Of a stretch of 64,000 nucleotides of DNA, positions 12,375 to 50,054 are shown piece by piece (within the stretch, counting starts at the first letter, position 1; every line of letters starts with the position of its first letter). The notes beneath the pieces are model-generated. The model worked only from the letters and a program-made list of their open reading frames with translations, was not told the DNA's origin and did not search any database. Origin of the DNA: Alphaproteobacteria bacterium (GTDB taxonomy: Bacteria > Pseudomonadota > Alphaproteobacteria > Bin95); the NCBI GenBank assembly GCA_965261985.1, contig OZ253490.1, positions 4,946,631 to 5,010,630 of the forward strand. Direction: 5' to 3'. A program made the translations under genes and the position numbers.

Positions 12375-12957
12375 GGAGCCCGAGTATAGGCAGCGAAGCC
12401 CGTACCGTCGTCAACATCGGCCAGCCGGTCGGCGAGCGCCGCCGGGAAGGGTAGCTGCACGAGCGCATCGGCGAGCGTCTGCGGATGCGACCAGCGCACC
12501 GGGCCGGCGAAGAGCTGCGTGCGCCGTCTGACGCCGACGAGCCAGAAGCCGCCGTCCTCGGCCGGCCCGAACACCGCCCGCGCCCCGCAGAGCCGGCGGA
12601 AGGCGCGCGCGACATGGTGCGGCCGCAGCGCAGGAATGTCGCTGCCGACCAGCACCGCCGGCAGGGGAACGCGGGCGAGCGCACGGTCCATCCGCGCGCC
12701 GATATCGCCCTTTCCCTGCCCGAAACGCGCGAGCCCGCGAGGCCAAGGCCCCCGCGCGCCGTCCGGCGTCACCGCGAGCACGACCCGCCAGCGCCTGTCC
12801 GCCGCGAGCCGGCGCAATTGTTCGGCTGTCGTGCGCCGGTAGAAGGCGGTGGCGCACGCGGGCCCGATGGCAGCCGCCAGCCTGGTCTTGACGGCGCCGA
12901 ACCTGGCCTCGCGCAGCATCACGACCACCGTGCCGCGCCGCATCCCGCAAGACCTCA
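12350..12957 (-). CDS. DUF2064/TIGR04282-family protein (glycosyltransferase-associated)
   Basis: MRSCGMRRGTVVVMLREARFGAVKTRLAAAIGPA…VLVGSDIPALRPHHVARAF…FGPAEDGGFWLVGV…. Its ATG overlaps the GT2 stop (ATGA). Confidence 0.65.
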
Positions 12958-13608
12958 TCCGTAGAGCCTCTGGATACGCTCCGGCGCCATGCCGGCGAGG
13001 AACAGCGAGAGACAGGCCAGATTCCGCACAGGCCGACGCCAGTAGCCGTCCCGGCGGTAGCGCAGGGCGGAAGTAACGACCTCGGGGTCGAGTTCGGCCA
13101 GACGGCGCCGGCCGATCCGGCGAACCAGGTCCACATCCTCCATCAGCGGCATATCGCGATAGCCGCCGACCGCATCGTAAAGAGTGCGCGGCATAACCAG
13201 CCCCTGGTCGCCGTAAGGCAGGCCGAAGCGCCGGGCGCGCCAGTTTGCGAGCCGCTCGACCCGCCGCGCCGCCGGCGCGGGATCGTCGAGGCGGAGACGG
13301 AACCAGCCGGCCCGGCCATCGTCCCGGAGCGCGCCCGGCCAGTCCGGCCCAAGACGGGAATCGGCGTGAAGCACCAGCAGCCACGGCGCGCTTGTGGCCG
13401 CCACGCCGGCGCGCAACTGGCTGCCCCGCCCTTTCGGCGCCTGGATAACACGCGCGCCGCCCGCTTCCGCAATCGCCGGCGTCCCGTCGGTAGAACCGCC
13501 GTCTGCGACCACAACTTCCTCGATCCGCTCCCGCCCCGGCGCCAGCGATTCCAGCGCCGCGGGCAGGCCGACGGCGGCATTCAGGGTCGGGATCACGACC
13601 GCAAGCAT
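12955..13608 (-). CDS. Family-2 glycosyltransferase (TIGR04283-like)
   Basis: MLAVVIPTLNAAVGLPAALESLAPGRERIEEVVVADGGSTDGTPAIAEAGGARVIQAPKGRGSQLRAG…. Confidence 0.8.
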   Translation of the reverse strand: MLAVVIPTLNAAVGLPAALESLAPGRERIEEVVVADGGSTDGTPAIAEAGGARVIQAPKGRGSQLRAGVAATSAPWLLVLHADSRLGPDWPGALRDDGRAGWFRLRLDDPAPAARRVERLANWRARRFGLPYGDQGLVMPRTLYDAVGGYRDMPLMEDVDLVRRIGRRRLAELDPEVVTSALRYRRDGYWRRPVRNLACLSLFLAGMAPERIQRLYG

Positions 13609-13666
13609 GGCGTCCGCCTATAGCTGCGCCCGCCCGCGCCGTCCACAGTCCGCTCGGCGGCGAGAC

Positions 13667-14095
13667 TGTCATGAAGTGTCATGTTTTGTCATGAGATGTC
13701 ATGTGCCCGCGCGCATCGCACCCGGCCTTCCGTTCTCCGGGTCCTGTCCATCGGTCCTCCTTCATGTCCTGTTTCATTCCATTCTCACCGCCGCCGACTT
13801 GCCTGCGGTGCGTCCCTTTTTCGCGCGTATCGCATGTGCGCACACGCGCGCGTTTCGCGCCGGCGCGCATACCGCGCGCCTGATTGCGCGCGCGAGTGGG
13901 CGCAGGGCGCACTTCTCCTGTCCGTTCCGTTGGGGTTTCTTGCGCCGGCGTGAGGCGGCAGACGACGCGGCCTCCGGATGCCGCTTTCCCTGTCTCATCC
14001 TACCACAAATTTTCCAGAGTCAATCATTTTCTATGACTTTATTCCATTTCGTGAACACTCGGGCGCAGCTTCTTATGCTGGGAGTTCCCGGCACT
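13667..14095 (+). repeat. Dispersed repeat family A, copy b. Four 10-bp-phased TGTCATG units at 13667-13703, immediately upstream of the GT2 operon start.
   Basis: tgtcatgaag tgtcatgttt tgtcatgaga tgtcatg, then the conserved core …TTTCGCGCGTATCGCATGTGCGC…GCGCGCCTGATTGCGCGCGCGAG…GGATGCCGCTTTCC…TCATCCTACCAC…. Confidence 0.8.
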
Positions 14096-14378
14096 CCACT
14101 CCGCAGTGAGATGGAGTGGGCCCCCGTGGCTGGACAGTCATATTGAACTGATTTGCTCGGCGCATTCGGACTGCCGAAAAACGACATTCCGGTTTACAGG
14201 ACGACGCCGACAGCGGGACGGCTGGGGCGCGAGATGGTCGCTAACCTGCAAGTACTAGGCCGATTAGCGGTGGCACAAGTCTGTTTCCTAGACAAATGGC
14301 GATAAGATAGCGATGGTAACTCGGCGAATTGAGCTTATTTTTGCAAATATCGTCGATATGGAAGAGGCGAAAAGAAGA

Positions 14379-15363
14379 CATGACTCGAATGGAGACCATT
14401 CATCCAGCCGCCCTGAAGGCAGCCCGCAAACGCGCGAACGGGAGGCGCGGCCTCACCCAGGAGCAACTCGCCGAAAAGATTGGCTGCGGCAAGGACACGG
14501 TCAGTCGGTGGGAGCGTGGCAGGTCGCGCCGGGTGCGGGCGCACCTCCGCGAGCCCTTGTGCAATGCGCTTGGGGTCGATTGGGAAACGCTGGCAACGCC
14601 GCCTGCCCCAGAGCAAACTCCCAAACCGTTCGGTCTTACCCGGATGCAGCGTTGGGTTGCACGCCATGTTCCGCCGGCACTGCTCCTCGTGGCTGTGCGT
14701 TACGGCATTCGGCCGACGGACGTGCTCGACATCGCTCCGCTGCTCTTCCTCATCGTTGCGGAACGAAGCCTGTTGGAACGACAGCGGCGACTCGATGAGA
14801 TTTACGCCACGCAAGACGAAGCTGACCAAAAGTTGATGGAAAAATCGGAGCATCTCGGGAGGATAATCGTCGCCCGCAGCACATCCGCCAACGATATGCT
14901 GGAGCAGGAGGAAAAGTCGCTCCGCGAGCGGGACATATATGGGCGCCTCATCGAATATGAACTCTGGGAAGACGGCGATGAAGGGCCTTTCGTCCATTTC
15001 GTACGCGATCTCGCAAAAGGGTTGCCCGAAGGTGCAGTGTCCTCCATCGAGGCATTCGGAGGCGACACGATCGACCGATATCGGATCGCAGAGGATACGT
15101 TGCGCGAATGCACAGGCATTTCCGGGGATGAAGAAGAGACCGAAATCCTGGACCATATCCGGTCGGGCGGAATCGACCTCGGTAAGTGCCTTCGCGCAAG
15201 GCGCGAGCGGGACGATGTCGGTTACCGGCAGTGGCTCCGAGATGAATCGGCACGGTCGGAGGAAGAGTCCCGCCGCGAGCTAATCGAGATATTCGGCGAG
15301 TCAGTACTCCGTAAGGTCTCGGATACCGTAGCGGCTGCGTCGCACGAAAGGGAAGACCGATGA
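14379..15363 (+). CDS. XRE-family HTH protein with a long uncharacterised acidic C-terminal domain
   Basis: …LTQEQLAEKIGCGKDTVSRWERG… Cro/C1-type HTH, 328 aa. Its stop overlaps the next start (ATGA at 15360). Confidence 0.7.
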
Positions 15364-15650
15364 CGAGCATCGCCATAACGCGCCACGGCGAAGCGAGAAT
15401 GTCGCAACGCGGCATTCGCAGGTCTGACCTCGATATCCTGCTTGCCCACGGCACCGAAATCGGCCCGGACCGGATCATGCTCAAGAACCAGGATGCGGCA
15501 AAGGTCATCCGGAACCTAAAGAAACAAATCGCCAAACTAGAGCGGTTGACCGGCAAGGAGGTCGTCGTTGCGGACGGCCGACTCATCACGGCCTTTCACC
15601 GGACAAGGCCAATCCGGCTATCCAGCCGAACGACAGGACGAGGAAGATAG
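15360..15650 (+). CDS. DUF4258-family protein (putative toxin-like small protein)
   Basis: MTSIAITRHGEARMSQRGIRRSDLDILLAHGTEIG… matches the DUF4258 H-A…R-M…RGI signature. Confidence 0.6.
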   Translation: MTSIAITRHGEARMSQRGIRRSDLDILLAHGTEIGPDRIMLKNQDAAKVIRNLKKQIAKLERLTGKEVVVADGRLITAFHRTRPIRLSSRTTGRGR

Positions 15651-15655
15651 GAACA

Positions 15656-16093
15656 ATGTCCGAAATTGAATATCGACCTATCGACATAGACTTTGAGGTT
15701 TATCAACTCATCGTGCTTGAGAAGCGTGGGTTCGATGAGTCAGACAACGAAGCCCTCAGGCGACTTCTTGGGTGGGATAATGTGCCTTCCAATTTGGAAT
15801 TTAATCCTCCATTGAAACGAGCTCCATGGTCCGGGAATGATATCGTATTGCCCGAAGGAACGAAGTTGCAAATGACCTATCGCGGCGTGGAACACAACGG
15901 CGTAGTGGTCGGCAGAAAGTGGGAAGTAGAGGGCAAGTGCTACAATACGCCGTCGCAGGCAGCTGCGGGCGTAGCGCGGACCAAGCATGGAGACAAAACA
16001 AATCTCAACGGTTGGAAATACTGGTTCGTCAAACGACCAGGGGATACTGGTTGGATCGCCATAGATGATTTGAGAAAAGGGAAAGTACGCTGA
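15656..16093 (+). CDS. Hypothetical protein, 145 aa, visibly AT-richer than the surroundings
   Basis: MSEIEYRPIDIDFEVYQLIVLEKRGFDES…GWKYWFVKRPGDTGWIAIDDL…. No family recognised. Confidence 0.55.
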   Translation: MSEIEYRPIDIDFEVYQLIVLEKRGFDESDNEALRRLLGWDNVPSNLEFNPPLKRAPWSGNDIVLPEGTKLQMTYRGVEHNGVVVGRKWEVEGKCYNTPSQAAAGVARTKHGDKTNLNGWKYWFVKRPGDTGWIAIDDLRKGKVR

Positions 16094-16371
16094 CCGGAAC
16101 GGCTTCCCGGATTAGGGCTGACGCAAACTCCTCGGCGGTCTTCGGTCTGGTTCAAGCGGAACGTTGAGTTGATGCGTGTCGTTCTCTGCCTCGCTCCATC
16201 CGTCATCCGTTAGGCTTGCCTGTTGGAAGCCGAACAGGGTGCAGGGTGCATTCTTCCTGTCTATCCCTTTGGGAACCGCACCGGCTCCATGAGCCGGCCT
16301 TCGGGTGCGTCCAGCCACACCAGAGTGCTCCCTACCGCTGCCGCGCATGCAACGCCCGCCAGAGGTCCGGT

Positions 16372-17403
16372 CTAGAAGCTGTATCTCAGCGAAAGGACGG
16401 TTTTCGTTTCCTCTACGTTCAAGAACCTTGCGCCGTCGAGGGATATTCGAGCCTTAGCATGGTTGACGCCCAGATTGGCCGACAGCCCCCGCGCGAAATC
16501 GTATTGAGCGCCCAGCGCGGCCGAAGCCTCGTCCTTGCCCTCGATGCGTCCGATCTGGCCTTCCAGGGACAGGGTTAGCGCGCCGGTTTTCGCGCGAATG
16601 CCGGAGGCGGCATACCAGCGCTCGGCGTCCGGTCCCTTCGACGAAAAATGCTCATAACCGGCGCCCGCATCGACCGTGGTGCTGCCGTAGATGACCTCGC
16701 CGACAATGCCGAGACCCCTGGTATCGAACCGCCGCCCGCCGACCGGGGCATAGACACCTTCCGCGGCCCGCAGCGTTAGCCGCCAGTCCCTTGTGCCCGC
16801 CGGGCGCTGGAAGGTCGCCCCGAGGTCGAGGTCGCCGTCCTCATCGACCACGGCGCCGACGACCCACGGGCCGAAGCGTCCCGTATACGCGCCGCTCCAA
16901 TCCTCAAGCGCGCCGAGGAAGTCGTCGAAGGCCAGCGCGGCATTGCCGGCTCCGCGCAGGCGCCGAGTCCGGTCGCGCACGGCGCCCGAGACATTGCCGC
17001 CCAGCAACGTGCCCCAGTAGCTGCCGACCGACAGCGCCGCATTGTCCGTGTAGTCGTCTCCGGCCCCGAAAACGGTTGTCGGGTCGGAGGCTTCCTGGCC
17101 GAAATAGGAAAGGTTAACCCGCCAGCGGTTCGGAAGTTGCGTCCCGGCGCTGACCTGGAAGTTCCCGATATAGCCTGTATCGGTGTCGTCGCCGCCTTCC
17201 GTATCGACGGTCCATCGTGCATCGAGCAGGCCGGTGAGCACGAAGGTCACATCGCCGATTTCGAACGCGAGCGGCTCCTCCATGGACGACAAGCTTTCAT
17301 AGTTGAGGGAAACGGACTGCGCCGAGGCGGGGCCGGCCGCCGCGAGCCACGCAGCCGCAATCGCGGCGGGAAGCAGGCCCCGCCGAGCCCGGTATGCGGT
17401 CAT
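16372..17403 (-). CDS. Outer-membrane beta-barrel porin-like protein
   Basis: Signal peptide [30 protein letters not shown]. Alternating beta-strand pattern, C-terminal …LSLRYSF with a terminal Phe. Confidence 0.7.
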   Translation of the reverse strand: MTAYRARRGLLPAAIAAAWLAAAGPASAQSVSLNYESLSSMEEPLAFEIGDVTFVLTGLLDARWTVDTEGGDDTDTGYIGNFQVSAGTQLPNRWRVNLSYFGQEASDPTTVFGAGDDYTDNAALSVGSYWGTLLGGNVSGAVRDRTRRLRGAGNAALAFDDFLGALEDWSGAYTGRFGPWVVGAVVDEDGDLDLGATFQRPAGTRDWRLTLRAAEGVYAPVGGRRFDTRGLGIVGEVIYGSTTVDAGAGYEHFSSKGPDAERWYAASGIRAKTGALTLSLEGQIGRIEGKDEASAALGAQYDFARGLSANLGVNHAKARISLDGARFLNVEETKTVLSLRYSF

Positions 17404-17407
17404 GGCC

Positions 17408-18799
17408 TCAGACCTTCGCCGGGAAGGTGGAAAGAAAGGCCTGCCTGGCCAGCGCTCGCCCGGATTCCAGTCCCTGCGCGTTGTCTATTGCCCAGTGGAC
17501 ACCGCCATAGAGCCGGCTCAGGCCGTTTTCTTCGGCCATGCGGCTCAAGCCGGTCCAGAGCCGGTTGACGCCCTGCAGTTGCGGCCACAGCACTTCGTCG
17601 GGCGAACGCCCGGAAAACGCGACATCGTCCCGGCCCAGGATCAGGGCGATCATCTCGGCCGCGGCAGCGCCGAATGTGGAATGGCCGGACGTGTAGGCCG
17701 GAAATTCCGGCGTAGGAATGTAGCTGCGCCAGCCGCGCTGGAGGATCACGCGCCGGTCCGGGCTCCCGAATGCGGGCGCGCGCACGCGAATGGCGCTCTC
17801 GGGCCGGACGACGTCGTAGTGGTATTTGTTGTCCCAGGCGCAGATGGACGCGTCGCACTGGGTCATGCCGATCAGCGCGAAGGCTCGGGCGAGCTCGATG
17901 AAGGAGAGGCCCCGGTCCTGCAAGAGCTGCATGGCGATATAGAGCATGTGCCCCGGCGGGGTGATGCCCCACGGGCCGTCTTCCCAGAAGAGCGCAATCT
18001 CCGACTGGTCGGCGGTCCTGACGCTGCTGTCCATTCCCCCGAGGCGGCGGATCGTGTCGAACTCTTCGGCGAACTCAGGGCTCGCCGGATCGTAAAATCC
18101 GCTCACCCGGAACTGCGAACCGCTCTTCATCGTCCATGGCTCGATCCGGCCGTGGCCCGGATAGAGGCAACGATCGAAGGAGGCGAAGGCAGGCCCCGGC
18201 GCGGCGCCGTAGAACGGGCCCGTCGGGCTCCACCGCAACGAGTCCGCGCGCCGTCGGTAGCGCCCGAGATAGTAGTTGACCTCGCTGGGCTCCGAACCGT
18301 CGTCCGTGCGCATGTCGAGCACCCGGCGGCCCACCGCACGGCCCCATTCGACCCCCAGCGACTTCGCCTCGCTATCGGGGAAGCGGTTCAGGAAGGCGAT
18401 GCGCTCGAACAGGAACGGTTGCTGGAACGCTTCCGCCGCTGCCGCCGCGAAGGCGACGCCATAAGCGACCTCCGGGTCGGCGTCGCGCGGTCCGGGCCCG
18501 ATTCCGAACGGCTCTTCATAGGCCCCGGCGATTCCGTTGGCAGCCAGGAATCCGGCTGCGGTGCCCAGCCCGTAATTGTAGGCGGCGCGCGGCGTCAGGA
18601 CCCTCTGGTCCCGCACCTGCTGCAGGGCCGTATCGACCCAAAGGAAGACGGTGTTCCCGTTCTGCGGTTTCAGGATCTGGCTCGTATAGGACGAGCGATG
18701 TCCCTGGGAGGCTACGTGCAGGCCGGCGCAGCCGGCCATGGACAGGGTGGAGGCCGCAGCAGCGGCGGCAGCGAGGAACTGCCGTCTGGTGTGGCTCAT
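17408..18799 (-). CDS. Tat-secreted PAP2-superfamily / vanadium-haloperoxidase-like protein
   Basis: MSHTRRQFLAAAAAAASTLSMAGCAG (twin-arginine plus lipobox-like). PAP2 motifs …RPESAIR…PAYTSGHSTFG…SRLYGGVHWAIDN…. SD AAAGGA upstream of the ATG at 18799. Confidence 0.75.
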   Translation of the reverse strand: MSHTRRQFLAAAAAAASTLSMAGCAGLHVASQGHRSSYTSQILKPQNGNTVFLWVDTALQQVRDQRVLTPRAAYNYGLGTAAGFLAANGIAGAYEEPFGIGPGPRDADPEVAYGVAFAAAAAEAFQQPFLFERIAFLNRFPDSEAKSLGVEWGRAVGRRVLDMRTDDGSEPSEVNYYLGRYRRRADSLRWSPTGPFYGAAPGPAFASFDRCLYPGHGRIEPWTMKSGSQFRVSGFYDPASPEFAEEFDTIRRLGGMDSSVRTADQSEIALFWEDGPWGITPPGHMLYIAMQLLQDRGLSFIELARAFALIGMTQCDASICAWDNKYHYDVVRPESAIRVRAPAFGSPDRRVILQRGWRSYIPTPEFPAYTSGHSTFGAAAAEMIALILGRDDVAFSGRSPDEVLWPQLQGVNRLWTGLSRMAEENGLSRLYGGVHWAIDNAQGLESGRALARQAFLSTFPAKV

Positions 18800-19555
18800 T
18801 GCAATCCTTTCGGTTCGAGAGTCCATGGATGCGGTTCGACATGCAGTCGGAGGCTTGCCCGACTGCCGGGAAAACGATGAGGAAGCAGTGCCGGATCGCC
18901 GGCTCAGGCGGCCATCGACACCGAACGAACGAGCGTCATGCCGGATGCGAATCCGGAGCCAACGGCGCACCCGCGCAGAAGGCGGGCAGACCGGGTCCGG
19001 TCAGGCGGCTCGGGGCAGCGTCAGGTGCCCGGAGGGCGATCGGAACGATGTGGAAAATGAAGGTCCATACGCATGGAAATAATAGGCGCACTTGCCCAAT
19101 TATTACTCATCCAACCGACTCTTCCGTAACGTAGATCGAAATGCGTCGTTTCGAAGCATTTCCATGATGCGCCCGTCATAGACGTTTCCCCCAATCGCGC
19201 ATCGCCGAGTACATAGAATGGAGCGCGATGGCAGTGGATAACCGGCCGAAAAAAGAAACGCAAGCGACACTTTGGCACCCTGTCCGGTTGCCTCGCCGCC
19301 TTTCCGGCGGCTCGTCAACAGCGCAACGATAGCTGCAGACGGCTGGCCTCGGGCCAAGGGCAAGGCACCGATGCGACAATAGGCACAGCCCCGCCGGCTT
19401 GAAGGGCGGCAGGCGAGCCGTTATATCCGGTCCTCAATAAGCCTCCGTGCCAATGACCGCACTGCCCCGGCGCCCTTTCCGGCGGAACGGGAGGAGATTT
19501 GTGCAGGCGCGGAATGACGAATGGACCGTCAGATTGAAGGAAGGAGACCCGTCCC

Positions 19556-25002: not shown

Positions 25003-25178
25003 AAATCGCGCGCCCGCATCTCGAATTTCAGCGTCTCCAGCCCGAAGGCCCGGACGAGCCCGGCGCTCCGCCTCATGCCAAGGCGCGTCGGCACGGCGAT
25101 GCCGCCGGCAGATGTGTGCTTCCAGCTGGCCGCCTGGCGGGCGAGGAAAGCGGAAGCGGGCGGGATGCCCCTGCGAAG

Positions 25179-25205
25179 TGTCATGAAATGTCATGAGATG
25201 TCATG
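25179..25205 (+). repeat. Repeat family A fragment c (three phased TGTCATG units only)
   Basis: tgtcatgaaatgtcatgagatgtcatg with no conserved core following. A decayed phage-like ORF follows instead. Confidence 0.6.
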
Positions 25206-25953
25206 GGCAGGGACGGATTCTCCGTCCTCGGGCCAGCCCGTCTCCTCCGGTTCGCCGGAGACGAACGGGTCGTTGCCGCAGCGCATCTCTTCCCATTCGA
25301 GCCTGTCCTGTCGCCGCTGCTCGATAGTCTCCGGGGCCCAGGGGTCGTAGATTTCAGGGAAGCCGTTTCGGCGCTGGTAGAGCCAGTCGTGTTCTGCGCC
25401 GTCGGCCCTGTCGTCATCGATCCTGTCCTCGTGGCCGGGCGGGTCGTCGCCGGCCCACTGGCCGTCTTCGTGGGTGTCCTCGGGCGGGTCGTCGGCGAGG
25501 GGGAGGTCTTCGCGCGGGGGCGGTTCGGAGGTCTGGAAGCAGACGGGCAGGCGCTCTCGCTCCTCGACGGCCTCGGCGAGCTTCCGGGCGGTTTCCTCAT
25601 GCGCGGCCTCGTCGAAGCCTTCCTGCCGCTCAAGCGCCTCGCGGCTCTCGCGGTGGCGGGCAAGCGCGCCCGGCGCGGTCGCGTCCGCTGCGCACGGCCT
25701 CGGCAAGCGGGCCCGGTTCGGTGCCGGCCTCATGCCCTGCGGCCATCTCGCCGAACTCGTCCTCGTCGGGCATCGGCCAGAGCCGGGCCCGGTTCGCACC
25801 GGCGGGTCTCGTGAGCCCGGCGATCTCGGCCTGCAGGCGCACGACCTGGAGCATCAGGTAAGCCGACCCGCTGGCGACAGCGGCATCCCAGGCCTGCTCC
25901 AGCCGGGCAAGCGCGATCCGGGCCTCGTCCTTTTCGGTGCGCCGCCAGGACAT
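25191..25953 (-). pseudogene. Frameshifted hypothetical (acidic, phage-remnant-associated) gene
   Basis: Two overlapping frames that each look coding: MSWRRTEKDEARIALARLEQAW…EFGEMAAGHEA… and …AAHEETARKLAEAVEERE…DPWAPETIEQRRQDRLEWEEMRCGNDPF…. The terminal HDIS residues are read from the TGTCATG array. Confidence 0.4.
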
Positions 25954-49704: not shown

Positions 49705-50054
49705 TATCATGAAATGTCATGTTTTGTCATGCTCCGCCGTTGCGGCGGCCTTTCCTCCATCGCGTTTCGTTCCCTCCGCGCCCCCGTCCTCCAGGCCGGG
49801 ACGCGGACCCTGTTTCGCGCGTATCGCGTGCCCGCGCGCCCGCCCGTGTCGGCGCCGGCGCGGTTCGCGCGCCTGATTGCGCCTGCGCGCGAGGCGGACG
49901 CGGGGCACGCGGGGCGCACCTTTCCCGTGCGTTTCTTCGGGGTTTTTCCGCGCCGGCGCGAAAGGGAAGGAACCGGCCCCGCGGATGCCGCTTCTTCCTG
50001 CCCCATCATAGCACACTTTCTCAGTAGTCAAGCTTCATTCGGGAATTATTTCAT
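49705..50054 (+). repeat. Repeat family A copy e. Heptamer array at 49705-49731, immediately upstream of the class II aldolase gene.
   Basis: tatcatgaaatgtcatgttttgtcatg, then …CCCTGTTTCGCGCGTATCGCGTGCCCGCGCG…GCGCGCCTGATTGCGCCTGCGCGCGAGGCGGACG…GGATGCCGCTTCTTCC…GGAATTATTTCATG. Confidence 0.8.

What the first reader, a model, noticed from the sequence alone, without database searches (positions are those of the whole stretch)
14150..16200. AT-richer three-gene island: long XRE-HTH protein, then DUF4258, then a 145-aa unknown, translationally coupled and abutting a family-A repeat
Genes at 14379-15363, 15360-15650 (ATGA overlap) and 15656-16093 form a compact co-oriented module whose GC content is visibly below the flanks, lowest in the third gene. 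DUF4258 proteins are usually treated as toxin-like partners of small antitoxins such as DUF2283. Here the upstream partner is instead a 328-aa protein with an N-terminal Cro/C1 HTH and a large acidic C-terminal domain of unknown function, and a third, unrecognisable gene follows. The arrangement resembles a three-component toxin-antitoxin or phage-defence locus that does not fit described families.
Basis: inference. Interest (0 to 1): 0.65.

Follow-up and report, generated by a model that had tools for sequence, protein, structure and literature searches.

The report
Toxin-antitoxin-like pair plus methyl-DNA reader gene
This is a small mobile gene cassette: a conserved pair that looks like a DNA-binding antitoxin with an undescribed large domain followed by a predicted RNA-cutting toxin, plus an optional third gene predicted to read methylated DNA. 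It is a new variant of a familiar kind of system rather than something fundamentally new.

Summary
The three ORFs are real: g1 14380-15363, g2 15360-15650 (ATGA overlap) and g3 15656-16093. All are under purifying selection and AT-richer than their flanks, g3 most of all.

The conserved unit is two genes, not three. Of 30 loci with an intact g1, 28 have g2 directly downstream; only 8 have a full g3 (3 of 20 in the unbiased genome scan).

- **g2** belongs to a divergent DUF4258/Ntox49 subfamily. Its model has the Colicin-like BECR element order, and [S/T]xH...R..QR is invariant in 33 homologues, with a mostly conserved His on the last strand. It is a predicted RNase toxin.
- **g1** is an XRE-HTH joined to a conserved, acidic, ~230-aa helical domain. 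That domain has no Pfam family and no solved-structure relative, yet it defines about 395 protein clusters with the same architecture.
- **g3** is not unrecognisable. It is a SeqA_N-like domain plus a RAMA domain (predicted N6-methyladenine DNA reader). The family also occurs alone, including on viral contigs.

The best reading is a type II toxin-antitoxin-like cassette with a new antitoxin type and a facultative DNA-reader accessory. Toxicity and neutralisation are inferred, not shown.

The parts
14294..14314 (+). Operator-like tandem units AAATGGCGAT (14294-14303) and AGATAGCGAT (14305-14314), 11 bp start to start, 66-86 bp upstream of the g1 start. Candidate binding site for the g1 HTH.
   Evidence: The pattern A[AT][AG]T[AG]N[CT][GT]AT gives 25 hits in 4.9 kb of g1-upstream sequence from 32 loci (5.1 per kb) against 0.07 per kb elsewhere in the same loci. 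Shuffled upstream sequences give 2.8 +/- 1.5 hits. Hits cluster at -68 to -87. The pattern was defined after inspecting the data, and binding is inferred.
14347..14359 (.). Perfect palindrome ATATCG-T-CGATAT, just upstream of the probable ribosome-binding site GGAAGAGG (14360-14367).
   Evidence: Read directly from the sequence. It is not conserved across loci, so its role is uncertain.
14380..15363 (+). g1: 327-aa XRE-HTH protein with a large conserved acidic helical C-terminal domain. Proposed antitoxin and autorepressor.
   Evidence: ORF. More than 160 full-length homologues. Conserved along the whole length. AF2 model with pLDDT 84. dN/dS 0.27.
14413..14586 (+). g1 Cro/C1 (XRE) helix-turn-helix domain, aa 12-69.
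   Evidence: HTH_31 E 1.3e-11 and HTH_3 E 5.3e-10. Foldseek and profile matches to SinR, ClgR, CapH-N, HipB, P22 C2, R-M controller proteins and PezA.
14668..15360 (+). g1 C-terminal domain, aa 97-327. Mostly helical, with a 44-residue helix at 112-155 that carries the invariant APLLFxIxAExSLxxR motif, and a beta-hairpin at 220-236. Residues 141-327 carry net charge -19. No described family.
   Evidence: No Pfam, NCBIfam or PADLOC match beyond the HTH. No PDB match. phmmer against 1.84 billion representatives finds 395 clusters, nearly all 300-330 aa with this domain starting at residue 95-105. Charge.
15360..15650 (+). g2: 96-aa divergent DUF4258/Ntox49 protein. Predicted Colicin-like BECR RNase toxin with a basic disordered tail.
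   Evidence: DUF4258 matches 30 of 33 family members, and relatives P0159 and P0144 pass Pfam's cutoff across the full profile. AF2 model pLDDT 86 with element order a1-a2-b1-b2-(inserted helix 43-63)-b3-b4. [S/T]7, H9, R13, Q16, R17 and T77 are invariant and H80 is present in about 28 of 33 homologues. Net charge +12. dN/dS 0.33.
15656..16093 (+). g3: 145-aa accessory protein with a SeqA_N-like (ribbon-helix-helix class) N-terminal domain plus a RAMA domain. Predicted reader of N6-methyladenine DNA.
   Evidence: 34 homologues covering the full length. RAMA matches 28 of 28 and SeqA_N 14 of 28 members. dN/dS 0.12. The source gene caller truncated it to 73 aa.
15671..15775 (+). g3 SeqA_N-like domain, aa 6-40.
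   Evidence: The family profile matches the solved SeqA N-terminal domain 1xrx at E 0.0012 and 3fmt at E 0.0036. The Pfam SeqA_N match is below cutoff in the window copy (15.7 vs 23 bits).
15824..16078 (+). g3 RAMA domain, aa 57-141, with invariant Trp, Gly and Pro positions.
   Evidence: PF18755 E 1.2e-5, 25.6 bits against a cutoff of 35.2. All 28 family members match, best E 1.9e-7. The C-terminus of PADLOC PDC-S14 matches at E 1.4e-8. Conserved columns.

Best explanation
The locus is a horizontally mobile, type II toxin-antitoxin-like cassette whose conserved core is two genes.

g1 encodes a bifunctional protein. Its N-terminal XRE-HTH is proposed to bind a conserved tandem motif upstream of the operon and autorepress it (inferred). 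Its large acidic C-terminal domain is proposed to bind and neutralise the basic g2 protein (inferred).

g2 is translationally coupled to g1 through the ATGA overlap. It is a divergent DUF4258/Ntox49 member of the Colicin-like branch of BECR ribonucleases, with a His in the first helix (H9), Arg/Gln partners (R13, Q16, R17) and a second His at the end of the last strand (H80). When g1 is depleted or inactivated, g2 is predicted to cleave RNA and arrest growth. By analogy with characterised Colicin-like BECR toxins, the target is most likely tRNA.

g3 is a facultative add-on, not a core component. It joins a SeqA_N-like dimerisation or ribbon-helix-helix domain to a RAMA domain, a predicted reader of N6-methyladenine in DNA. 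One sub-clade of this otherwise free-standing gene family has become linked to the pair. It probably modulates the cassette's expression or links it to DNA methylation state.

Shown here: gene structure, conservation, domain identities, conserved residues, linkage statistics and composition. Inferred: toxicity, neutralisation, operator binding, the RNA target and the role of g3.
For: - Linkage: 28 of 30 loci with an intact g1 have a g2 homologue immediately downstream. This includes members only 25-39% identical to g1 and cultured strains: Roseibium L040, L041 and the Ensifer adhaerens megaplasmid L047. From the g2 side, the one close relative with flanking sequence again has g1 directly upstream.
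- Order and coupling: antitoxin then toxin, with an ATGA overlap, which is the order reported for DUF4258 modules.
- g2 identity: 30 of 33 members hit DUF4258, and two relatives 65-71% identical to g2 pass Pfam's cutoff over profile positions 1-71.
- g2 fold and residues: the model's element order matches the Colicin-like topology [pre-alpha + alpha b1 b2 b3 b4] with catalytic His residues on the pre-alpha helix and on b4, as described. H9, R13, Q16 and R17 are invariant in 33 homologues and H80 is present in about 28. Ntox49 is defined by conserved H and [KR].
- Charge complementarity: g1 residues 141-327 are net -19 and g2 is net +12.
- g1 HTH resembles known repressor/antitoxin HTHs: HipB, HigA, PezA, SinR.
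- A conserved upstream motif travels with the module.
- Orphan or decayed g1 genes exist without g2 (L026, L028, L030), as expected if g1 is the harmless partner.
- Mobility signature: AT-richer than flanks in 26 of 28 loci. Contexts are variable and sometimes include integrases and IS elements. Between the window and L005 the module is 70-75% identical while syntenic neighbours are 85-96% identical, and upstream flanks are unrelated.
- All three genes are under purifying selection.
Against: - No DUF4258 protein has been tested experimentally. The literature lists its function as unknown.
- The window's g2 scores below Pfam's DUF4258 cutoff (19 vs 25 bits).
- A structured domain of about 230 aa is far larger than typical toxin-neutralising segments, so it may do something other than neutralise.
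- In L031, g1 is split into three pieces by two insertions, yet g2 is intact with all conserved residues. Polarity could silence it, but this was not tested.
- In L063, a close g2 relative has no g1. It is instead followed by a g1-like HTH fused to a dynamin-like GTPase. This suggests the HTH partner's C-terminal domain may act as a swappable effector or sensor.
- No physical g1-g2 interaction was modelled or measured.
Confidence: 0.6

Rival explanations
1. It is an anti-phage defence (abortive infection) system. The large C-terminal domain of g1 acts as a sensor that releases or activates the g2 RNase on infection. The RAMA protein g3 detects methylated or otherwise modified invading DNA.
For: - RAMA domains are associated with restriction enzymes and methylases, and the g3 RAMA region matches the C-terminus of the PADLOC candidate PDC-S14 (E 1.4e-8).
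- A g3 relative sits beside a type I R-M system.
- The L063 variant pairs a g2 relative with a g1-like HTH fused to a dynamin-like GTPase next to integrases, which suggests a modular sensor or effector.
- L038 lies among DruA-domain genes, transposases and integrases.
- The module diverges faster than its neighbours.
- Carriers are mostly MAGs whose names indicate sponge or marine-invertebrate symbionts.
Against: - No full-length PADLOC model matches any of the three proteins.
- Several loci are embedded among housekeeping genes rather than in defence islands.
- g3 is absent from most loci, so methyl-DNA sensing cannot be integral to the system.
- g1 is absent from phage records and viral contigs, which fits but does not demonstrate defence.
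- No phage data exist.
Confidence: 0.2
2. It is an obligate three-component toxin-antitoxin or defence system in which g1, g2 and g3 are all required.
For: - Spacing in the window is tight: ATGA overlap, then 5 nt.
- The same trio, in the same order, occurs in several phyla: L005, L015 (Chloroflexi), L017, L022, L036-L038.
- g3 relatives more than about 55% identical appear to be linked to the module, judging from contig lengths shared between the hit lists.
Against: - Full g3 is present in only 8 of 30 intact modules, and 3 of 20 in the unbiased scan.
- g3 remnants or truncations occur in L013 and L018, and an alternative C-terminal domain in L012 and L039.
- The g3 family occurs alone in bacteria and on 14 viral contigs with no g1 or g2 nearby.
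- In the window, g3 has a different history from g1-g2: dS 1.94 against 0.43-0.71, and GC3 0.53.
Confidence: 0.08
3. It is a non-toxic regulatory pair. g1 is a transcription factor of a mobile element. g2 is a small basic nucleic-acid-binding co-regulator or anti-repressor that has kept a BECR-like scaffold without nuclease activity.
For: - DUF4258 has no experimentally shown activity.
- g2 is intact in L031 although g1 is disrupted.
- H80 is replaced in about 5 of 33 homologues.
- The window copy is below Pfam's cutoff and the model has no 3-D match.
Against: - Invariance of [S/T]xH...R..QR across 33 homologues down to 29% identity suggests a catalytic or ligand site rather than a generic basic surface.
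- The positions of the two His residues match the catalytic layout of Colicin-like BECR RNases.
- Acidic-basic pairing, the gene overlap, the AT-rich mobile signature and orphan g1 genes all fit toxin-antitoxin behaviour.
Confidence: 0.12

Closest known systems
DUF4258 (PF14076) / Ntox49 toxins of the BECR (Barnase-EndoU-ColicinE5/D-RelE) superfamily, as type II toxin-antitoxin toxins (Gerdes 2025, PMC11980606; Zhang et al. 2012, PMC3482391; BECR classification preprint 10.64898/2026.08.28.747851)
   Same: - g2's orthologous group matches the DUF4258 profile.
- It has the pre-alpha + alpha + four-strand element order, a His in the first helix, a His on the last strand and conserved Arg residues.
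- Gene order is antitoxin then toxin.
- The partner carries an XRE-type HTH, as do the MqsA parts of known DUF4258-MqsA fusions.
   Different: - g2 has a 21-residue helix inserted between strands 2 and 3, longer in P0160 and P0165, and a basic disordered tail.
- The window copy is below Pfam's cutoff.
- The partner is not a small antitoxin (HicB-type, MqsA or Imm22). It is a 327-aa protein with an undescribed 230-aa domain.
- Distant generic DUF4258 relatives with enough upstream flank to test (L067, L069; 37-38% identity) lack a g1-type partner.
Antitoxins that fuse an N-terminal XRE-HTH repressor to a C-terminal helical toxin-binding domain, such as PezA of PezAT; also HipB and HigA (comparison from established knowledge, plus PDB hits)
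   Same: The N-terminal HTH is similar to PezA, HipB and HigA (2p5t, 2wiu, 6af3). The C-terminal part is helical. The gene lies upstream of and overlaps its partner. Autoregulation plus neutralisation in one polypeptide is the proposed working mode.
   Different: The g1 C-terminal domain is much larger (about 230 aa against about 90 in PezA). It has no detectable sequence or Foldseek similarity to any solved antitoxin. The partner toxin is a BECR-type protein, not a zeta kinase or HipA kinase. This is a 'works like' comparison only; membership is not claimed.
RAMA-domain proteins and SeqA (Iyer et al. 2016, PMC4738411)
   Same: g3 carries a RAMA domain preceded by a domain matching the SeqA N-terminal oligomerisation domain. 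RAMA fusions to SeqA are noted in the original description. RAMA is a predicted reader of N6-methyladenine DNA.
   Different: g3 is a small stand-alone two-domain protein with no nuclease or methylase. Here it is linked to a toxin-antitoxin-like pair rather than to an R-M system. Both domain matches are below Pfam's cutoffs in the window copy. No binding data exist.
Tripartite toxin-antitoxin modules with an extra regulator, for example paaR2-paaA2-parE2, or toxin-antitoxin-chaperone systems (from general knowledge, not tested against sequences here)
   Same: Three co-oriented, tightly spaced genes, one of which (g3) has a ribbon-helix-helix-class DNA-binding or dimerisation domain that could act as an extra regulator.
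   Different: The third gene comes last, is dispensable in most relatives and belongs to an independently mobile family. No homology to those systems' components was detected.

Membership tests
DUF4258 (PF14076) / Ntox49 | Match to the Pfam DUF4258 profile at or above the gathering score (25 bits) | tested here: inconclusive
   The window's g2 scores 19.0 bits (E 0.0017), covers only profile positions 1-27 and is below the cutoff. However, 30 of 33 members of its orthologous group match at E <= 0.01. Seven relatives score 25.4-28.8 bits, and P0159 and P0144 (65-71% identical to g2) cover profile positions 1/2-71. The group is therefore a member, and the window copy is a member by orthology.
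DUF4258 (PF14076) / Ntox49 | Colicin-like BECR topology: pre-alpha helix + alpha + four-stranded antiparallel sheet | tested here: inconclusive
DUF4258 (PF14076) / Ntox49 | Conserved His in the pre-alpha helix, a second His on the terminal strand, and conserved Lys/Arg (Ntox49 signature: H, [KR]) | tested here: met
   H9, R13, Q16 and R17 are invariant in 33 homologues. H80, at the end of b4, is present in about 28 of 33, including the window copy.
DUF4258 (PF14076) / Ntox49 | Ribonuclease activity and toxicity | not testable with these tools
   The literature at hand lists the function as unknown even for canonical DUF4258.
Type II toxin-antitoxin module | Two adjacent, co-oriented, overlapping or closely spaced genes that are conserved as a pair | tested here: met
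   ATGA overlap. 28 of 30 intact g1 genes have an adjacent g2, down to 25% g1 identity.
Type II toxin-antitoxin module | The antitoxin carries a DNA-binding domain and autoregulates through an operator | tested here: inconclusive
   The HTH domain is clear. A conserved upstream tandem motif is enriched about 70-fold over background and clusters by position. The pattern was defined after seeing the data, and binding is untested.
Type II toxin-antitoxin module | The toxin inhibits growth and the antitoxin neutralises it by direct binding | not testable with these tools
   Only indirect support is available: charge complementarity (-19 against +12) and orphan g1 genes without g2. A counter-example exists: intact g2 with a disrupted g1 in L031.
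RAMA domain (PF18755) | Match to the RAMA profile | tested here: inconclusive
   The window's g3 scores 25.6 bits (E 1.2e-5) against a cutoff of 35.2. All 28 family members match at E <= 0.01, best 1.9e-7. 17 of 34 homologues carry a precomputed PF18755 hit. There is also a weak profile match to the MPND RAMA structure 7ydt (E 0.22). Homology is likely, but the curated threshold is not reached by the window copy.
SeqA N-terminal domain (PF17206) | Match to the SeqA_N profile or structure | tested here: inconclusive
   The window copy scores 15.7 bits against a cutoff of 23. 14 of 28 members match, best E 8.9e-5. The family profile hits solved SeqA-N 1xrx at E 0.0012 over the whole 43-residue domain.
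Obligate tripartite toxin-antitoxin / three-component defence system | All three genes are conserved together as a unit | tested here: not met
   Full g3 is present in 8 of 30 intact modules, and 3 of 20 in the unbiased scan. The g3 family is found alone elsewhere.
Described anti-phage defence systems (PADLOC-DB 2.0) | Full-length match of the component proteins to a system's models | tested here: not met
   Only domain-level matches were found. The g1 HTH matches the N-termini of RmrA and CapH. The g3 RAMA region matches the C-terminus of PDC-S14. g2 has no match.

The most novel reading that the evidence does not exclude
The XRE-HTH proteins of this family are not simple antitoxins. They are modular sensor-regulators whose C-terminal domain is swappable: the undescribed 230-aa acidic domain here, a dynamin-like GTPase in L063. 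They control a dedicated DUF4258 RNase. The third-position gene, with its constant SeqA_N-like N-terminus and variable DNA-reader C-terminus (RAMA here, another domain in L012 and L039), couples RNase release or operon expression to the N6-methyladenine state of DNA. On this reading, the cassette is an epigenetically gated abortive-infection or addiction system, enriched in sponge and marine-invertebrate symbionts.
Probability: 0.12. Interest if true: 0.7.

Novelty: new variant of a known kind. Interest (0 to 1): 0.4.

Why it matters
DUF4258/Ntox49 is a large predicted toxin family (about 6,000 Pfam members) with no experimentally characterised member. This cassette offers a clean, well-conserved pair in which to test it, with specific catalytic-residue predictions (H9, R13, Q16, R17, H80).

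The partner defines an unannotated protein family: about 395 clusters at 50% identity, all currently labelled only "HTH transcriptional regulator". Its 230-aa domain has no Pfam model or solved relative. If it neutralises the toxin, it is a new antitoxin domain.

The facultative SeqA_N-RAMA gene raises the possibility of a link between DNA adenine methylation reading and toxin-antitoxin control, which would be of broader interest if real.

Practically, the analysis corrects a truncated gene call for g3 in the source genome, and shows that the "three-gene system" is really a two-gene core with optional accessories.

Tried and rejected
2. **Sequence profiles against PDB.** The g1 family hits HTH domains only. 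g2's only hit is a non-significant CdiA-CT, 6cp8, at E 0.74.
3. **Integration signatures.** No flanking direct repeats or att-like sites, no Rfam family at E <= 1 (a search that would include tRNA families) in 12500-17500, and no convincing sigma-70 promoter or terminator beyond chance. A discrete, recently integrated island with recognisable ends was therefore rejected. dS of g2 is about the same as that of flanking DJ-1 between the window and L005, so the pair predates their split.
4. **Phage or plasmid origin.** No g1 relatives in 50,697 phage records or IMG/VR. Only three distant plasmid hits.
5. **Alternative third gene.** The idea that the L012 variant is a full SeqA homologue rests on a weak Pfam SeqA_C hit (E 0.088). 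A PDB search did not confirm it, so it is left as unresolved.
6. **Structured RNA in the upstream repeat.** The consensus fold has a positive (penalising) covariation term and almost no compensatory pairs. Not supported.
7. **Natural experiment on toxin loss.** I expected g2 to be damaged wherever g1 is disrupted. This was not borne out in L031.
8. **Usual DUF4258 partner.** The claim that DUF4258 usually pairs with DUF2283 could not be verified in the paper library.
9. **Fourth gene.** A small membrane protein seen in relatives has no counterpart in the window.
Full report
**1. What is in the sequence.**
Three co-oriented ORFs occupy 14380-16093 on the + strand.
- g1 is 14380-15363, 327 aa. 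The homologue alignment supports this ATG rather than the upstream TTG at 14329.
- g2 is 15360-15650, 96 aa. Its ATG overlaps the g1 stop as ATGA.
- g3 is 15656-16093, 145 aa, starting 5 nt after the g2 stop.

GC is 0.606, 0.588 and 0.495 for the three genes, against 0.667 for the window. GC3 is 0.67, 0.71 and 0.53, against about 0.8 in the flanking genes. The source genome's own gene caller truncated g3 to 73 aa. Full-length homologues and a dN/dS of 0.12 show that the 145-aa ORF is the real gene.

**2. The conserved unit is a pair, not a trio.**
A scan of one genome per GTDB species with a g1 alignment returned 29 loci. Further loci came from exact look-ups and from plasmid records.

In a uniform HMM tally, 30 non-redundant loci carry an intact g1. 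Of these, 28 have a g2 homologue immediately downstream on the same strand. The exceptions are L026 and the Blastomonas plasmid, where the g2-like ORF is only weakly detectable.

The pairing persists in g1 relatives only 25-39% identical: Roseibium sp. RP-7, L041, and the Ensifer adhaerens megaplasmid. From the g2 side, the one close metagenomic relative with flanking sequence again has g1 directly upstream. Of the distant generic DUF4258 relatives (35-38% identity), the two with enough upstream sequence to hold a g1 (L067, L069) have none; L068 has too little flank to judge.

Full-length g3 follows the pair in only 8 of 30 loci, and in 3 of 20 in the unbiased scan. Remnants occur in L013 and L018. 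In L012, and frameshifted in L039, the same N-terminal domain is joined to a different C-terminal domain. More distant g3 relatives stand alone in bacterial genomes, one beside a type I R-M system, and on 14 IMG/VR viral contigs with no g1 or g2 nearby. A 48-51-aa single-pass membrane ORF is a further occasional add-on (L005, L036, L011) that the window lacks.

**3. What g2 is.**
The window copy matches Pfam DUF4258 below the cutoff (19 vs 25 bits). However, 30 of 33 members of its orthologous group match. Relatives 65-71% identical to g2 pass the cutoff across the whole profile.

The literature places DUF4258, which overlaps Ntox49, in the BECR ribonuclease superfamily. It gives antitoxin-then-toxin gene order, reports DUF4258-MqsA fusions, and lists no experimental function. 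A recent classification assigns DUF4258 to the Colicin-like branch. That branch has the topology pre-alpha + alpha + b1-b4, one catalytic His in the pre-alpha helix and a second on b4.

The AF2 model of g2 (pLDDT 86) has exactly this element order, with an extra helix (residues 43-63) inserted between b2 and b3 and a basic disordered tail. Across 33 homologues, [S/T]7, H9, R13, Q16, R17 and T77 are invariant. H80, at the end of b4, is present in about 28.

**4. What g1 is.**
Residues 12-69 form a Cro/C1 HTH resembling SinR, HipB, HigA, PezA, phage repressors and R-M controller proteins. After a low-confidence linker (residues 73-96) comes a confidently modelled, mostly helical domain (pLDDT 84 overall). 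It has a 44-residue helix that carries the invariant APLLFxIxAExSLxxR motif, and a beta-hairpin.

This domain has no Pfam, NCBIfam or PADLOC match, even in distant relatives, and no PDB relative. Searched alone against 1.84 billion representatives, it finds 395 clusters. Nearly all are 300-330 aa with the domain beginning at residue 95-105, so the architecture is fixed. Sources annotate these proteins only as HTH regulators.

Residues 141-327 carry net charge -19 while g2 carries +12. This is the usual acidic-antitoxin, basic-RNase-toxin pattern.

**5. What g3 is.**
All 28 aligned family members match RAMA and 14 match SeqA_N. The family profile hits the solved SeqA N-terminal domain at E 0.0012. 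RAMA is a predicted N6-methyladenine DNA reader found fused to restriction nucleases, methylases and SeqA. g3 is therefore a recognisable, independently mobile DNA-reader gene.

Between the window and L005, g3's dS is 1.94, against 0.43 for g2, 0.71 for g1 and 0.38 for the flanking DJ-1 gene. The window's g3 has GC3 of 0.53 against 0.715 for L005's g3. This suggests that the window's g3 allele was exchanged or acquired separately.

**6. Regulation and mobility.**
A tandem motif lies 66-86 bp upstream of g1: AAATGGCGAT and AGATAGCGAT, at 14294-14314. Matches to the pattern recur at -68 to -87 in many loci. The rate is 5.1 per kb against 0.07 per kb in the background, and 25 hits were observed against 2.8 +/- 1.5 in shuffles. 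I defined the pattern after seeing the data, so this is suggestive only. A similar motif sits upstream of the g2 relative in L063.

The module is AT-richer than its flanks in 26 of 28 loci. Neighbourhoods vary from housekeeping genes to integrase- and IS-rich regions.

Between the window and the TARA scaffold L005, the downstream genes (DJ-1 to LysR) are syntenic and 85-96% identical, while the module is only 70-75% identical and the upstream flanks are unrelated. The window also has a 3.2-kb insert (porin plus VCPO/PAP2) between g3 and DJ-1. No att-like repeats or Rfam-family matches (including tRNA families) mark the ends. The cassette is thus an old resident at a synteny breakpoint, not a fresh insertion.

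**7. Mechanism.**
The best-supported model is a type II toxin-antitoxin-like cassette (confidence about 0.6). g1 represses the operon through its HTH and neutralises g2 through its acidic C-terminal domain. When freed, g2 cleaves RNA, probably tRNA by analogy with characterised Colicin-like BECR toxins. g3 is a facultative modulator that may tie the cassette to DNA methylation state.

Structure, conservation, linkage and residues are shown here. Toxicity, neutralisation, operator binding and the RNA target are inferred.

Caveats:
- No DUF4258 protein has ever been tested.
- The g1 domain is unusually large for a neutraliser.
- In L031, g2 is intact although g1 is split by two insertions.
- In L063, a close g2 relative is paired with a g1-like HTH (31% identity over 62 aa, E 9e-5) fused to a dynamin-like GTPase. 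This hints that the HTH partner's C-terminal domain could be a swappable sensor or effector. It keeps a defence-type reading alive (about 0.2).

**8. Comparison and verdict.**
The closest known systems are DUF4258/Ntox49 type II modules. In working mode, the closest are HTH-plus-helical-domain antitoxins such as PezA. g3 belongs with the RAMA and SeqA readers. The obligate three-component model fails its defining test. No described defence system matches at full length.

I classify the locus as a new variant of a known kind: a known toxin family with an undescribed antitoxin-type partner family and a facultative DNA-reader accessory. Interest is moderate (0.4). It is not surprising to a specialist, but it is a clean entry point to an uncharacterised toxin family and an unannotated partner family of about 400 clusters.

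Noticed in passing
It has invariant blocks (TTCGCGCGTATC, GCGCGCCTGATTGC, GGGCGCAC, ATGCCGCTT). One copy lies upstream of the module in both the window and L005. No Rfam match, and the consensus fold shows no supporting covariation.
   Followed up: partly
window 13669-13706; similar at 25175-25208 and 49707-49731: An array of GTCATG hexamers at roughly 10-bp spacing (gtcatgaagt gtcatgtttt gtcatgagat gtcatgtg). It sits 60-100 bp before two copies of the dispersed repeat and just upstream of the divergently transcribed glycosyltransferase gene. It looks like a protein-binding-site array.
   Followed up: no
window 15872-16093 vs 15656-16093; L038 8359-8874: Automatic gene calls mis-annotate g3. 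The source genome truncates it to 73 aa. In L038 it is missed entirely, in favour of spurious ORFs.
   Followed up: yes
L005 7485-7640; L036 8734-8880; L011 7280-7423: A conserved 48-51-aa single-pass membrane ORF (consensus ...DWxDxAIPxNGREVxxLL... followed by a hydrophobic helix). It follows g3, or g2 directly in L011, as an occasional fourth gene. No Pfam match. It is absent from the window.
   Followed up: partly
L012 7274-7837; L039 8287-8855 (frameshifted): The third-position gene keeps the SeqA_N-like N-terminus (74% identical to g3 residues 1-38) but carries a different C-terminal domain. That domain has a weak Pfam SeqA C-terminal hit (E 0.088), which a PDB search did not confirm.
   Followed up: partly
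L063 3905-6726: A g2 relative (P0160, 52% identical, with a longer helix insertion) has no g1 upstream. It is followed by a 749-aa protein that joins a g1-like HTH to a dynamin-like GTPase domain, next to two integrases. An AAATATCAT-T-AAATACCTAT motif lies upstream.
   Followed up: partly
window 16372-18970 (- strand): A porin-like 343-aa gene and a PAP2/vanadium-chloroperoxidase-like gene are inserted between the module and the DJ-1 gene, relative to the otherwise syntenic L005.
   Followed up: no
window 15656-16093 vs L005 7036-7488: g3's synonymous divergence (dS 1.94) is far above that of g1 (0.71), g2 (0.43) and flanking DJ-1 (0.38) for the same genome pair. The window's g3 has much lower GC3 (0.53 against 0.715). 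This suggests allelic replacement of g3 alone.
   Followed up: partly
L007-L035 (genome-contig scan): All 29 species-level hits for g1 are metagenome-assembled genomes spanning Alpha- and Gammaproteobacteria, Chloroflexi and Acidimicrobiia. Many have names or bin labels that indicate sponge or marine-invertebrate symbionts (Poriferihabitaceae, SB0662/SB0675 bins, RHO2 bin, Arenicellales). This suggests spread within holobiont communities. The habitat link is read from record titles and was not tested.
   Followed up: no
L031 789-6444; L027 4103-6669; L030 5962-7085; L013 9690-10030: Decay states of the module. g1 is split by insertions in L031 (two insertions, g2 intact) and L027. g1 is frameshifted, with no g2, in L030. 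A second, degenerate g2 + g3 remnant lies 2.5 kb downstream of the intact pair in L013.
   Followed up: partly
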